Shown here one piece after another: positions 3 through 2,286 of a stretch of 64,000 bases of DNA (positions within the stretch are counted from its first letter, which is position 1; each line of letters starts with the position of its first letter). The DNA is from a virus (taxonomy: Duplodnaviria; Caudoviricetes). The notes under the pieces were generated by a model. The model did no database searches, had not been told where the DNA came from, and worked only from the letters and a program-made list of their open reading frames with translations. The stretch lies in the IMG/VR virus record IMGVR_UViG_3300005689_000302, positions 19,204 to 83,203 of that record; one strand, 5' to 3'. The translations under genes were made by a program, and so were the position numbers.

Positions 3-1256
3 GAGCCGGGGCTGTTCATCGATCGCCACCGCTGCCCGAAGCTCGCCCGGCAAATGAGCACCTACCGCTGGGAGCGCTCGACCGGCGCCGGCGCCAACCC
101 GAAAGCGGCCCGCCCGGTGCCGCTCAAGAGAGACGATGACTGCTGCTTTCCTGCGGGTACGCTCGTCGCGACTCCCGAGGGGGCGACGGAAATTGAAAGC
201 CTGCGCGCAGGCGACGCGGTGCTAACGCATCTGGGCGAAAGCCGAGTCGCTGTTGCCGAAGAAACAGGAGAAGAAGAGCTTTATCGGATTACTTTGATCG
301 ACGGCCGTGTTATAGAATGTACCGCAACGCATCCGTTCGCAACATCAGACGGAGGCTTCGTTGCCGCCTGCGAACTGACGCCGGGGACATTCATTGACAG
401 CCTTCCATCATGCAAGTCCGCGAAGAGATCAACCGAAACGGAAAGCCTCGCGAAGTCATCGAATACGCCGGGCACGTCTGGTATCGATACCCGACTTGCC
501 GTTCATCACCGGCAAGAACGTATTTCCGGCGATGCGAACGACGGGGCGGTCAGTCGGCGAAGATCCGCACGTTCTGGCTTCACAAGCAAGTCTGGATCGA
601 CAACTTCGGAAAGATTCCCCGGGGCAGGGTTGTCCACCACAAAGATGAGAACCCAGCCAATAACAGAATCGACAACCTCGAGTTGCTCACTCCATCCGAG
701 CATTCGAAGCGCCATCGAGCAAACATCGAAAAGGCGATTGACGCCGCTCGTCAGTGGCATGGAAGCAAGGTCGGAAAAGAATGGCACAAGCAGCATGGAC
801 TGCAAACCTGGAACGGTCGCACTTCGAAACTCAAGACCTGCGAATACTGCCGAAAGAGATTCGGGACGAAGGACCGCAAGCGCGCAACGCGATTTTGCAG
901 CGATCAATGCCGAGCCTATTCGCGACGCCATCGCGGCGACGACAACGAAACCAGAACATGCGAATGGTGCGGGTCTGAGTTCGTCGTCAACCGTTTCGCA
1001 AAGACGACATGCTGCTCGAAAAAATGTGGTTGCCGTGCAAGTTGGGCGCGTGGAGCGCGCAAACCGAAGGGCAAGAGTCTTCAATCTGGCGACTGACGAC
1101 GGAACCTACTTCGCCAACGGCGTTCTCGTTTCCAACTGCGACGCCCTCCGCTACATGATTTACTCCGACGTCGGCAACCGCGCTCAAGGGATCCTCGCCC
1201 GCCGCGAGACGCCCCAAGCGCGGCCCGGCGTCCGCTTCAAACGCGTTTCTCGATAG
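3..1256 (+). CDS. terL: Terminase large subunit, C-terminal part (5'-truncated by the window edge), interrupted by an intein
   Basis: Frame is open from nt 3. Removing the intein gives ...PLKRDDDC|CDALRYMIY, matching the DDHxxDALRY end of terminase nuclease domains. Lies upstream of the portal. Confidence 0.85.
   Translation, partial: EPGLFIDRHRCPKLARQMSTYRWERSTGAGANPKAARPVPLKRDDDCCFPAGTLVATPEGATEIESLRAGDAVLTHLGESRVAVAEETGEEELYRITLIDGRVIECTATHPFATSDGGFVAACELTPGTFIDSLPSCKSAKRSTETESLAKSSNTPGTSGIDTRLAVHHRQERISGDANDGAVSRRRSARSGFTSKSGSTTSERFPGAGLSTTKMRTQPITESTTSSCSLHPSIRSAIEQTSKRRLTPLVSGMEARSEKNGTSSMDCKPGTVALRNSRPANTAERDSGRRTASAQRDFAAINAEPIRDAIAATTTKPEHANGAGLSSSSTVSQRRHAARKNVVAVQVGRVERANRRARVFNLATDDGTYFANGVLVSNCDALRYMIYSDVGNRAQGILARRETPQARPGVRFKRVSR
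144..1136 (+). mobile_element. Intein (331 aa, Hint splicing domain)
   Basis: Block A CFPAGTLVAT, block B ECTATHPF, blocks F/G RVFNLATDDGTYFANGVLVSN followed by Cys+1. Penultimate residue is Ser rather than His. Confidence 0.9.
410..1096 (+). CDS. HNH homing endonuclease nested in an alternate frame inside the intein
   Basis: HHKDENPANNRIDNLELLTPSEH HNH motif and C-terminal CxxC/CSxxC Zn-ribbon repeats. Frame is shifted relative to the intein. Confidence 0.88.
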   Translation: MQVREEINRNGKPREVIEYAGHVWYRYPTCRSSPARTYFRRCERRGGQSAKIRTFWLHKQVWIDNFGKIPRGRVVHHKDENPANNRIDNLELLTPSEHSKRHRANIEKAIDAARQWHGSKVGKEWHKQHGLQTWNGRTSKLKTCEYCRKRFGTKDRKRATRFCSDQCRAYSRRHRGDDNETRTCEWCGSEFVVNRFAKTTCCSKKCGCRASWARGARKPKGKSLQSGD

Positions 1257-1263
1257 GTTCGCC

Positions 1264-2286
1264 ATGCCTCGCCAACGCCCGCCGCGACAAGGCGCCCCGC
1301 CGCTGCGCTCGGAAGTCGAACAGCTCGTCGGCGACGTGCAACGCTATTTCCGCGGCGGTTCGACGGTGCGCAGCGCATTCGGTCAGCTCGCCTCGCTGGT
1401 CGCCGAGCTGCTCGGCTTCAGCCGCGGCCAGCGCGGGGCCCCGTCGCGCACCGACATTCAAGACGCGATCGACGTCATGGCCGAAGCGGGCCTCGATCCG
1501 CGCAACGTGCAAGCCGCGGCGGCGACTGTGGGCGGCGCTGGTCGCGCCGGCCAGCCGTCGGCGCCGCGCAGCGGTCCCCAGCCGCTTACCGCCACGCAAA
1601 CCTTACCGCGGCCAGCGCGCGGTTTTCGCGTCGGCGGCACGCCTCCCGGCTCGCCTTCGCTCGATCCGCGCAACCGGCTGCCGCCTGAATTGCGGCTGCC
1701 GCCAGGCGGCGATCGGATCACCGTCCCGGGCGATGCCGACTGGCCGGAAGAGCACCTGATCGACACCCGCGTTATCTCGGCGGCGCTGGTCGATCGACTC
1801 ACTGGCCAACAATCGCTCGAGTGGATCGAGACGCCGCAAAGCTCGAACGTCTACAGCTTCGCCTACGATCACTCGCAATCGATTCTGTACGTCACTTTCA
1901 AGGCGCCGAGCAATCAGCGCCGCCGGCCGCACGTCACCGGGGCAACCTACGCCTACGGTTCGAAGGCGCGGCCGATTCCCGCCCGGATGTACGAATCGCT
2001 CCTGCGGGCCAGCTCCAAGGGTGAATGGGTGTGGGACAAGCTCCGCGTCCGCGGCTCGCGCTGGCGCCACCAAGTGCCGTACATTCTCACCGCCGGCGGC
2101 TTCGACGGCCGGGCCGGCTTCGATGGCGATCCGATGGCGCACTACATTCCGCGGAAGGCTACCGCTCGCGGCTTTCGAGTGCGCACCGTGCCCGTTCTCG
2201 GCTCGGCGCGGCGCCGCGGCGCGATTGGCCGCTCGACGCTGCCTGAGCAAATCGGCCCTGCCTACCGGCAATCGCTCTTGCCGTAG
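1264..2286 (+). CDS. KTSC-domain-containing protein
   Basis: TPQSSNVYSFAYDHSQSILYVTFK...YAY...YESLLRASSKGEWV resembles KTSC. Confidence 0.65.
   Translation: MPRQRPPRQGAPPLRSEVEQLVGDVQRYFRGGSTVRSAFGQLASLVAELLGFSRGQRGAPSRTDIQDAIDVMAEAGLDPRNVQAAAATVGGAGRAGQPSAPRSGPQPLTATQTLPRPARGFRVGGTPPGSPSLDPRNRLPPELRLPPGGDRITVPGDADWPEEHLIDTRVISAALVDRLTGQQSLEWIETPQSSNVYSFAYDHSQSILYVTFKAPSNQRRRPHVTGATYAYGSKARPIPARMYESLLRASSKGEWVWDKLRVRGSRWRHQVPYILTAGGFDGRAGFDGDPMAHYIPRKATARGFRVRTVPVLGSARRRGAIGRSTLPEQIGPAYRQSLLP

What the first reader, a model, noticed from the sequence alone, without database searches (positions are those of the whole stretch)
144..1136. Terminase intein whose homing endonuclease is encoded out of frame
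Seen: the intein frame is open throughout, but its middle (~aa 90-315) is S/T/R-rich and not domain-like. An overlapping frame (410-1096) encodes a clean HNH plus Zn-ribbon protein with its own ATG, and its stop lies within intein block F. Established: intein endonucleases are normally in-frame domains. Inference: a dual-coding element in which homing and splicing are translated separately or via a frameshift. The intein sits at the terminase catalytic DDxxxD motif and has Ser instead of the penultimate His.
Basis: partly seen in the sequence, partly recalled or inferred. Interest (0 to 1): 0.75.

Follow-up and report, generated by a model that had tools for sequence, protein, structure and literature searches.

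The report
Terminase intein with overlapping HNH gene
The DNA-packaging gene of this uncultured phage carries a self-splicing protein insert (an intein), and a complete HNH nuclease gene is written one base out of step inside it; the layout is real and kept by selection, but it has been in the literature since 2015 and 2025, so this is one more example.

Summary
The large terminase gene (terL) of this 83-kb IMG/VR phage carries a 331-aa class-1 intein (window 144-1136) in its nuclease motif KRDDDC|CDALRY. A 228-aa HNH_3 plus double zinc-ribbon ORF (410-1096) lies inside it in the -1 frame, and the terL frame stays open. AlphaFold folds the HNH ORF well (pLDDT 86). In the intein frame only aa 1-90 and 290-331 fold, as a mini-intein (Z 20.8 to gp41-1); aa 91-289 are disordered.

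Fourteen independent loci share the layout, including phages TJE1, phiCDHM19 and Highwayman. All have 0 stops in the intein frame, against 4-16 in eight free-standing or split-intein homologues. In the ten loci tested, the intein-frame peptide is no more conserved than HNH conservation alone predicts. The element sits in unrelated terL families, and 38 of 42 relatives of this terL lack an intein.

Best reading: a mini-intein carrying a separately initiated homing-endonuclease gene, with selection only against stops in the overprinted linker. A frameshift is unlikely.

This is not new. Brucella phage Tb is annotated this way (noted in 2015), 2025 papers describe out-of-frame intein endonucleases, and this scan already reported the layout in at least 43 other genomes.

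The parts
3..143 (+). End of the terL N-extein. The gene starts upstream of the window, at L001:135. This part ends in ...PLKRDDDC.
   Evidence: 873-aa ORF. Terminase_6N match at 2e-4. 52-56% identical to intein-less terL genes in L041-L048.
144..1136 (+). Class-1 intein, 331 aa, in the terL frame: Cys1 ... Ser330-Asn331, followed by +1 Cys.
   Evidence: Pfam Hint_2 at 1e-7 and Intein_splicing at 1.4e-6. Boundaries. GC is 54-58% against about 69% in the flanks.
144..413 (+). N-terminal splicing half, intein aa 1-90. Block A is CFPAGT; block B is TATH with His63.
   Evidence: pLDDT 85-94. His63 and Cys1 are invariant in alignment A2. Part of the Hint fold match, Z 20.8.
414..1010 (+). Overprinted linker, intein aa 91-289. 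It is stop-free, 41% Ser+Thr+Arg, not conserved and predicted disordered.
   Evidence: pLDDT 27-38. Composition. Its identity to homologues equals the null expected from HNH conservation.
1011..1136 (+). C-terminal splicing half, intein aa 290-331. Block F is VFNLATDDGTYFANG; block G is VLVSN.
   Evidence: pLDDT 81-94. Conserved in A2.
395..397 (+). TGA that closes the HNH frame 4 codons upstream of its ATG.
   Evidence: frame open from 398.
410..1096 (+). Nested HNH endonuclease ORF, 228 aa, in frame -1 relative to terL, with its own ATG. It overlaps intein aa 89-318.
   Evidence: HNH_3 at 3.6e-14. phrog_15471 at 7e-35. Homologues up to 49% identical over 100% of the length. AlphaFold pLDDT 86.2. 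Best PDB match is I-HmuI.
575..706 (+). HNH catalytic core, ORF aa 56-99 (...VVHHKDENPANNRIDNLELLTPSEH).
   Evidence: H76, H77, D79, N81, N84, N85, N89 and H98 are invariant in A1. Coordinates.
839..910 (+). First CxxC...CxxxC zinc ribbon of the HNH protein (C144, C147, C163, C167), FCS-like.
   Evidence: Cysteines invariant in A1. Weak profile match to FCS zinc finger 2l8e. Coordinates.
959..1030 (+). Second zinc ribbon of the HNH protein (C184, C187, C201/202, C206).
   Evidence: Strand-strand-helix unit in the model.
1137..1256 (+). terL C-extein (CDALRYMIYS...) with its stop codon.
   Evidence: It aligns with the DALRY tails of intein-less relatives.

Best explanation
terL is interrupted, inside the last conserved motif of its RNaseH-like nuclease domain, by a mobile composite element with two parts.

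- A class-1 mini-intein of about 130 residues is built from intein aa 1-90 and 290-331. It splices itself out of the TerL precursor and restores ...KRDDDC-CDALRY....
- A free-standing-type HNH homing-endonuclease gene is nested between the two halves in the -1 frame.

Ribosomes reading terL pass through the HNH gene in the wrong frame and make a 200-residue disordered linker. That linker has no function of its own except to contain no stop codon. The HNH protein is made separately, by internal initiation at its own ATG (410).

During mixed infection the HNH is expected to nick or cut intein-less terL alleles at or near the DDxxDALRY coding site. Repair from the intein-carrying genome then copies the intein and HNH together. 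The intein makes insertion into an essential gene harmless, and the nuclease makes it spread.

What is shown here:
- the architecture;
- the fold of both products;
- selection on the HNH sequence;
- selection against stops in the intein frame;
- sporadic distribution across unrelated terL families.

What is inferred: separate translation, splicing activity and the cleavage target.
For: Architecture and domains.

Folds:
- The HNH ORF has pLDDT 86.2 from only 8 sequences. The only PDB sequence relative is the homing endonuclease I-HmuI.
- In the intein frame aa 1-90 and 290-331 have pLDDT 81-94 and superpose on the gp41-1 intein (Z 20.8, rmsd 1.2 A over 123 of 127 residues). aa 91-289 have pLDDT below 40.

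Selection:
- 0 stops in the intein frame in all 14 nested loci; the ten first examined have 4-32 in the third frame. Eight free-standing or split homologues have 4-16 stops in the same frame.
- The synonymous-permutation probability of no stop ranges from 0.0006 to 0.48 per locus.
- The window's HNH uses 0 GTG among 9 Val codons and 1 CTG among 7 Leu codons, against 25% and 44% in the phage's other genes.
- Identity between loci is 30-51% in the HNH frame and 13-32% in the intein frame, which equals the null expectation of 15-28%.

Mobility:
- The intein has 54-58% GC in a gene with about 69% GC.
- HNH identity to other loci is 34-48% while the N-exteins are unrelated; TJE1's is 26% over 50 aa.
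- 38 of 42 terL relatives lack any intein, including the eight listed first (52-56% identical, L041-L048). They read DDxVDALRY or DDCCD at the site.

Expression:
- A start codon follows the nearest upstream in-frame stop within 10 codons in 7 of the 10 nested loci first examined.
- GGAGGG or AAGGAG motifs lie 6-8 nt upstream in L039 and L011, and GGAG in L006.
- There is no slippery heptamer in 11 of 12 loci.

The same HNH family also occurs as a free-standing gene next to terL (PAE1, CL2, EauM-23, BP10, Shemara, L008) and between split-intein halves (Vibrio phage 1.238.A, L010).
Against: - There is no expression, splicing or cleavage data for any member.
- The window has no Shine-Dalgarno or promoter-like motif before the HNH ATG. 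The other genes I inspected in this phage also lack one, so this is weak evidence.
- For the window alone, the open frame is only marginally improbable (P 0.056 to 0.48).
- The penultimate intein residue is Ser, not His.
- A 200-residue disordered insert could slow splicing.
- The HNH family is always linked to terL, which would also fit a packaging role.
- The HNH tree is unresolved, so the order of events (free-standing to nested, or the reverse) cannot be read from it.
Confidence: 0.75

Rival explanations
1. Recoding. Ribosomes translating terL shift -1 near position 400, and possibly +1 back near 1090. The HNH would then be made as an in-frame intein domain, or as a TerL-IntN-HNH fusion, rather than from its own start codon.
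For: - The frame relation is the same in all nested loci: HNH = terL frame -1.
- The window has no visible ribosome-binding site before the ATG.
Against: - The HNH frame is closed by a stop 1-10 codons before its start codon in 7 of the 10 nested loci first examined. Any shift would have to occur in that very short stretch.
- 11 of 12 loci have no X XXY YYZ heptamer there.
- Several loci have good Shine-Dalgarno motifs at the right spacing.
- The HNH stop lies inside block F, so a return shift would delete part of the splicing domain.
- The same HNH family is expressed as an ordinary free-standing gene elsewhere.
Confidence: 0.05
2. Relic. The HNH was once an in-frame or free-standing nuclease and is no longer translated. 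Only the open terL frame matters now, and the HNH ORF persists by inertia.
For: - The homing cycle predicts frequent endonuclease decay.
- A mini-intein without HNH exists at the same site (L078), and L011 looks decayed.
- No expression signal was found in the window.
Against: - The ORF is intact in 14 loci at 30-50% identity, with invariant catalytic and zinc ligands.
- The amino-acid constraint lies in the HNH frame, not the intein frame.
- The fold is confident.
- An unselected 228-codon ORF would not stay open across such divergence.
Confidence: 0.07
3. Packaging helper. The HNH works with terminase in DNA packaging, as the HK97-type HNH proteins do (Kala et al. 2014). Its constant linkage to terL would then be functional rather than selfish.
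For: - Every homologue found lies in or next to terL or terS.
- The 2015 brucellaphage paper raised this idea for its own nested HNH.
Against: - The domain is HNH_3 with an I-HmuI-like layout, not the small PF01844-type packaging HNH.
- 38 of 42 relatives of this terL have no intein and so no nested HNH, which is not expected of a required packaging factor. A free-standing copy elsewhere in those phages was not looked for.
- Its location in inteins and between split-intein halves is the classic homing-endonuclease habitat.
Confidence: 0.1
4. Artefact. Two compensating frameshift errors in the assembly turned an ordinary in-frame HNH intein into an apparent dual-coding one.
For: The record is a single metagenomic assembly.
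Against: - The same frame relation is seen in 14 independent assemblies. They include isolate phage genomes sequenced by different groups.
- Codon usage is shaped to avoid stops in the intein frame.
Confidence: 0.01

Closest known systems
Brucella phage Tb/Pr (Perisivirus) terL intein with a nested out-of-frame HNH gene (NC_019446 gp07/gp08; noted in Virol J 2015, PMC4422536)
   Same: - It is a terminase large-subunit intein whose frame stays open.
- A 228-aa HNH ORF with zinc ribbons lies inside it, on the same strand and in another frame.
   Different: - The HNH family and domain order differ: zinc ribbons first, HNH last. Only the 30-aa HNH core aligns (E 2e-5).
- That intein sits in the N-terminal third of TerL (about residue 175; likely the ATPase part, not checked), not in the nuclease motif.
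- The relative frame is the other one: Tb's HNH is terL +1, here it is terL -1.
- It looks like an independent origin of the same layout.
[quoted passage not shown]
   Same: - The homing endonuclease is in a separate frame of the intein's middle.
- The in-frame middle has no recognisable structure, while the out-of-frame product folds.
- Many cases are in terL.
- The authors propose that a free-standing endonuclease invaded a mini-intein.
   Different: - The nuclease there is endonuclease VII-like.
- That survey found HNH only as an in-frame domain.
- Hosts are actinophages only.
- Here a single HNH family shows nested, split and free-standing states.
ShiLan-type out-of-frame HNH insertions in phage DNA methylase genes (Arsenault et al., Genes 2025, PMC11855218)
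   Same: - A hidden HNH ORF lies out of frame inside a host gene whose frame stays open.
- There is no obvious ribosome-binding site.
- Internal initiation is proposed.
   Different: - There is no splicing domain there, so the insert stays in the host protein as a loop.
- Here a complete Hint domain flanks the HNH and should remove the junk peptide.
Fractured genes: split inteins separated by a free-standing homing endonuclease gene (Dassa et al. 2009, PMC2677866)
   Same: - An endonuclease gene sits between the N- and C-terminal intein halves of an essential phage gene, terminase included.
- The 3' end of the endonuclease ORF overlaps the start of the downstream intein part.
- The best structural match of this intein is gp41-1, which I take to be the split intein of the gp41 fractured gene in that paper (from knowledge, not checked).
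   Different: - In the window the intein frame has no stop, so TerL is made as one chain and splices in cis.
- The endonucleases in that paper were GIY-YIG or Vsr-like, not HNH.
- Relatives L010 and Vibrio phage 1.238.A do show the true fractured form with this HNH family.
I-HmuI-type HNH homing endonucleases (PDB 1u3e)
   Same: - HNH_3 catalytic core and an elongated multi-module layout.
- I-HmuI is the only PDB sequence match (E 5.8e-4) and the top Foldseek match (probability 0.97).
   Different: - From general knowledge, I-HmuI is encoded in a group I intron and binds DNA through NUMOD and helix-turn-helix modules.
- This protein has an N-terminal beta domain and two FCS-like zinc ribbons.
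- The global TM-score is low (0.23-0.27).

Membership tests
Class-1 intein (Hint superfamily) | Hint fold of the splicing domain | tested here: met
   The AlphaFold model of aa 1-90 plus 290-331 superposes on the gp41-1, NpuDnaB and Mtu RecA inteins: Z 19.8-20.8, rmsd 1.2-2.0 A, 123-128 residues. Pfam Hint_2 scores 32.9 bits against a cut-off of 28.4.
Class-1 intein (Hint superfamily) | Nucleophile at residue 1, block B TxxH, C-terminal Asn, and a +1 Cys/Ser/Thr | tested here: met
   Cys1, T60-A-T-H63, Asn331 and +1 Cys. C1, H63 and N331 are invariant in A2.
Class-1 intein (Hint superfamily) | Penultimate His (block G), usual but not obligatory | tested here: not met
   - Ser330.
- Ser is also found in L003, L005, L006, L030, L032, L039, L053 and L070.
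- His is found in L007, L009, L034, L094 and L095, and Lys in L078.
- From established knowledge, inteins without this His can splice, so membership is not excluded.
Class-1 intein (Hint superfamily) | Protein splicing activity | not testable with these tools
   Inferred only: terL is essential, and the frame is kept open in 14 loci.
HNH_3 / I-HmuI-like homing endonuclease | HNH (beta-beta-alpha-metal) catalytic motif above the family threshold, with catalytic residues intact | tested here: met
   HNH_3 scores 52.5 bits against a cut-off of 24.8. H76/H77, N89 and H98 are invariant in A1.
HNH_3 / I-HmuI-like homing endonuclease | Sporadic, horizontally inherited distribution tied to a conserved target gene | tested here: met
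   - 38 of 42 terL relatives are intein-less.
- The element occurs in unrelated terL families.
- Its GC content differs from that of the host gene.
HNH_3 / I-HmuI-like homing endonuclease | Site-specific cleavage or nicking of the element-free allele | not testable with these tools
   No biochemical data exist for any member I found.
Non-canonical intein with an out-of-frame, same-strand homing endonuclease (Brucella phage Tb; Gosselin et al. 2025) | Complete endonuclease ORF on the same strand, in another frame, inside the intein, while the extein and intein frame stays open | tested here: met
   The HNH ORF covers intein aa 89-318, with 0 stops in the terL frame.
Non-canonical intein with an out-of-frame, same-strand homing endonuclease (Brucella phage Tb; Gosselin et al. 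2025) | The in-frame middle lacks structure, while the out-of-frame product folds as a nuclease | tested here: met
   pLDDT below 40 for aa 91-289, against 86.2 for the HNH ORF.
Fractured gene / split intein (Dassa et al. 2009) | A stop after the N-intein half and a separate gene for the C-intein half | tested here: not met
   The window's terL frame is continuous. The feature is met only in relatives L010 and L033.
Terminase-associated packaging HNH (HK97 gp74 type, Kala et al. 2014) | Small PF01844-type HNH required for terminase cleavage | tested here: not met
   A Pfam scan at E up to 1 returns HNH_3 only, not PF01844. The protein is 228 aa with two zinc ribbons. A functional requirement could not be tested.

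The most novel reading that the evidence does not exclude
This one HNH family, always tied to terL, survives in all three stages of endonuclease-intein association:
- free-standing beside terL;
- between the halves of a split intein;
- nested out of frame in a contiguous intein.

A mini-intein without HNH also occupies the same site. If the states are connected by repeated transitions, the family would be a natural series showing how mini-inteins capture free-standing homing endonucleases (the 'splicing first' model). It would also show that the +1 frame of an ORF can be cleared of stops by synonymous changes alone.
Probability: 0.4. Interest if true: 0.5.

Novelty: new member of a known kind. 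Interest (0 to 1): 0.35.

Why it matters
- **Annotation.** Gene callers report either one long terL or a lone HNH. Records for TJE1, phiCDHM19, Highwayman and MD07 list only terL over the HNH. The junk linker can be mistaken for a decaying endonuclease domain.
- **Overlapping genes.** This is a clean natural case of two overlapping frames under very different selection: amino-acid constraint in one, only 'no stop' in the other. It is replicated in 14 loci from 31% to 56% GC, so it could serve as a test set for methods that detect overlapping genes.
- **Intein evolution.** It adds a widespread HNH case to the 2025 proposal that inteins acquire endonucleases by invasion of free-standing genes.
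- **Tools.** The mini-intein tolerates a 200-residue disordered insert and lacks the penultimate His, which may interest protein engineers.
- **This phage.** The finding is ordinary selfish DNA in an essential gene.

Tried and rejected
- **A single-sequence search for terL relatives** found nothing. An alignment-based search worked.
- **Scan of bacterial and archaeal genomes.** It used a single pattern and gave only two full-length hits, so no host or prevalence estimate was made from it.
- **HNH phylogeny.** No well-supported branches were obtained, so the number and direction of free/split/nested transitions cannot be inferred.
- **Allele pair.** Acinetobacter phages Highwayman (nested) and BP10 (free-standing) share a 51% identical HNH, but their terL genes are only 27% identical, so they are not an intein-plus/intein-minus pair.
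- **Promoter scan of 1-1400.** No sigma-70-like site was found. This says little for a probable planctomycete phage.
- **Slippery-site scan.** It was negative in 11 of 12 loci, so programmed frameshifting was set aside.
- **Classical dN/dS.** It was not attempted because all pairs are saturated (50% amino-acid identity or less). An identity-versus-null test was used instead.
- **The 2026 cyanobacterial dnaX preprint** on an out-of-frame intein endonuclease could not be opened. Only its title and the start of its abstract were seen.
- **Sequencing artefact.** Rejected because the layout recurs in independent assemblies.
Full report
**Where the window lies.** The window is bases 19204-83203 of an 83,203-base IMG/VR virus record. 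It opens inside the large terminase gene. The full terL ORF is 873 aa (L001:135-2756). Its N-extein gives a weak Terminase_6N match. An intein-less relative, 53% identical, matches Terminase_6N plus the RNaseH-like Terminase_6C domain right up to the motif where the insert sits.

**Checking the observation.**
- The terL frame reads ...PLKRDDDC | CFPAGTLV ... GVLVSN | CDALRYMIYS.... This gives a 331-aa intein at 144-1136 with Cys1, block B T-A-T-His63, C-terminal Asn and +1 Cys. Pfam finds Hint_2 (1e-7) and Intein_splicing (1.4e-6).
- The -1 frame contains an ATG-initiated 228-aa ORF at 410-1096, closed upstream by TGA at 395-397. It matches Pfam HNH_3 (3.6e-14). It also matches PHROG 15471, a family of free-standing phage HNH endonucleases, over nearly the whole profile (7e-35).
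- The ORF overlaps intein residues 89-318, and its stop falls inside block F (VFNLATDDG).
- The intein's middle (aa 91-289) is 41% Ser+Thr+Arg, against 22% in the splicing parts.
- The whole intein has 54-58% GC in a gene whose flanks have about 69%.

**Which frame makes a real protein.**
- AlphaFold2, given only eight sequences, folds the HNH ORF with mean pLDDT 86.2: an N-terminal beta domain, the HNH core, a helical linker and two zinc-ribbon units.
- The only PDB relative by sequence profile is the homing endonuclease I-HmuI (E 5.8e-4). It is also the top Foldseek match (probability 0.97).
- In the intein frame the model is sharply two-part. Residues 1-90 and 290-331 have pLDDT 81-94, and residues 91-289 have 27-38.
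- The confident parts superpose on mini-inteins: gp41-1 at Z 20.8 and rmsd 1.2 A over 123 of 127 residues, NpuDnaB at Z 20.1, and Mtu RecA at Z 19.9.
- The intein is therefore a mini-intein of about 130 residues with a 200-residue unstructured insert. That insert is exactly the stretch that encodes the HNH in the other frame.

**Is it more than chance?**
- For this window alone the evidence is moderate. If the HNH codons are redrawn from the phage's own codon usage, the intein frame is stop-free in 5.6% of trials (mean 2.1 stops). With uniform synonymous codons the figure is 0.6%. Permuting the ORF's own codons gives 48%, because that ORF already avoids the dangerous codons: 0 GTG among 9 Val and 1 CTG among 7 Leu, against 25% and 44% in the phage's other genes.
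- Only NTA or NTG codons followed by A or G can create a stop in this frame. So it can be cleared almost entirely by synonymous changes.
- The family settles the question. Searches with the HNH protein found the same layout in 13 further independent loci, with the HNH in frame -1 inside a terL intein whose frame is open.
  - Seven are IMG/VR contigs: L003/L004, L005, L006, L007, L009, L053 and L070.
  - Four are phage genome records from GenBank: Tetrasphaera phage TJE1, Clostridium phage phiCDHM19, Acinetobacter phage Highwayman and Rhodobacteraceae phage MD07.
  - Two are metagenome-assembled genome contigs: L094 (Coprococcus) and L095 (a betaproteobacterium).
- GC in the ten loci first examined ranges from 31% to 56%. 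All 14 have 0 stops in the intein frame, and those ten have 4-32 in the third frame.
- Eight homologues that are free-standing or lie between split-intein halves have 4-16 stops in the equivalent frame.
- Multiplying the conservative per-locus permutation probabilities over ten loci (my arithmetic) gives about 5e-14.

- I aligned the HNH proteins of ten nested loci and read the same codon columns in both frames.
- Identity between loci is 30-51% in the HNH frame and 13-32% in the intein frame.
- When synonymous codons are permuted while the HNH proteins are held fixed, the intein frame is expected to be 15-28% identical. Observed values lie within about two standard deviations of this in 14 of 15 pairs (z -1.1 to 3.5).
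- So amino-acid constraint lies in the HNH frame. In the overlap the intein frame is constrained only to lack stops.
- Outside the overlap the roles reverse. The splicing halves are conserved (intN 31-53%, intC up to 61%), while the HNH tail that overlaps block F is not.

**Mobility.**
- The composite element sits in terL genes that share no detectable similarity. For example TJE1's N-extein is 26% identical over 50 aa, while its HNH is 48% identical.
- The insertion point is always the same short motif, D-[HD]-x-x | C-D-A-x-R-Y or a close variant.
- An alignment-based search recovered 42 relatives of this phage's terL. Thirty-eight have no intein, including the eight listed first (52-56% identical). 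They read, for example, KRNDDCVDALRY or KKGDDCCDVTRY at the site.
- Three relatives carry the nested HNH intein, and one (L078) carries a 148-aa mini-intein with no HNH.
- This patchy pattern, together with the composition difference, is what a homing element produces.

**How the HNH is probably expressed.**
- In 7 of the 10 nested loci first examined, a start codon follows the nearest upstream in-frame stop within 10 codons.
- Several loci have Shine-Dalgarno-like motifs at working distance: GGAGGG in L039, AAGGAG in L011 and GGAG in L006.
- The window has none. The two downstream genes I looked at lack one too, and no sigma-70-like promoter was found.
- A -1 slippery heptamer in the entry region is present in only 1 of 12 loci.
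- Separate internal initiation is therefore the better-supported route. It remains an inference.

**Other states of the same family.**
- Homologues stand free between terL and the portal gene (Pseudomonas phage PAE1, Lactobacillus phage CL2, Exiguobacterium phage EauM-23, Salmonella phage Shemara, L008) or upstream of terS (Acinetobacter phage BP10).
- In L010 and Vibrio phage 1.238.A the terL frame stops after the N-intein half. The HNH gene follows, and a separate ORF encodes the C-intein half plus the C-extein. This is the 'fractured gene' layout of Dassa et al. 2009.
- A maximum-likelihood tree of 22 HNH proteins is unresolved, so I cannot say how often or in which direction the states changed.

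**Comparison with what is known.** The layout is not new.
- GenBank record NC_019446 (Brucella phage Tb) annotates terL as 'intein present' with a nested 687-nt HNH gene.
- The Tb case looks independent of this one. It has a different HNH family and domain order, a different site in TerL and the other relative frame.
[quoted passage not shown] They propose invasion of mini-inteins by free-standing endonucleases.
- The same group described out-of-frame HNH inserts without an intein (PMC11855218).
- A 2026 preprint title reports an out-of-frame endonuclease in the cyanobacterial dnaX intein. I saw only its title and the start of its abstract.
- This scan's earlier notes report the same terL-intein-HNH layout in at least 43 other genomes.
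- I found no paper describing this particular HNH_3 plus double zinc-ribbon family at the terL nuclease motif.

**Verdict.** Separate translation is favoured over frameshifting. The finding is a further member of a known kind of non-canonical intein. Its interest lies in how widespread and cleanly replicated the family is, not in the window itself.

Noticed in passing
L005:1185-2357 (intein) and L005:1381-2217, minus strand: The same contig's terL has a second intein at the Walker A motif (GGNA|C...HHN|SGKT). Its open middle holds a 279-aa ORF on the opposite strand that matches HNH_3 (3e-9) and HTH_23. This is an antisense HNH inside an intein. The 2025 preprint reports antisense LAGLIDADG and Vsr-like genes but not HNH.
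   Followed up: partly
L078:3577-4020 (approximate): A 148-aa mini-intein with no endonuclease (CLPAGELI...GILLKN|C) sits at the same terL site, in a relative of the L003 terL. It is either the empty precursor or a product of HNH loss.
   Followed up: partly
L033 (Vibrio phage 1.238.A, NC_055735:5900-6800) and L010:3761-4449: Here terL is truly split. The N-part with the N-intein half ends in a stop, then comes the same HNH family as a separate ORF, then a small 'hint domain protein' ORF carrying the C-intein half and the C-extein. The HNH is not annotated in the RefSeq record.
   Followed up: partly
L011:3905-4689: The frames are mixed. The HNH N-part is in one frame, the HNH C-part is in frame with terL, and the C-intein half with the C-extein is in the third frame. 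This may be a decayed or mis-assembled copy, or an intermediate.
   Followed up: no
L030 (TJE1), L032 (phiCDHM19), L034 (Highwayman), L039 (MD07): The public records of these phage genomes annotate only one long terL over the nested HNH ORF. The HNH gene is missing from the annotation.
   Followed up: yes
window 1264-2286: The gene immediately after terL encodes a 340-aa protein, rich in Pro, Arg and Ala, with a KTSC domain (Pfam 3e-6).
   Followed up: no
window 410-1096: The HNH ORF avoids NTG and NTA codons: 0 GTG among 9 Val and 1 CTG among 7 Leu, against 25% and 44% in the phage's portal and terL genes. This is a visible footprint of stop avoidance in the overlapping frame.
   Followed up: yes
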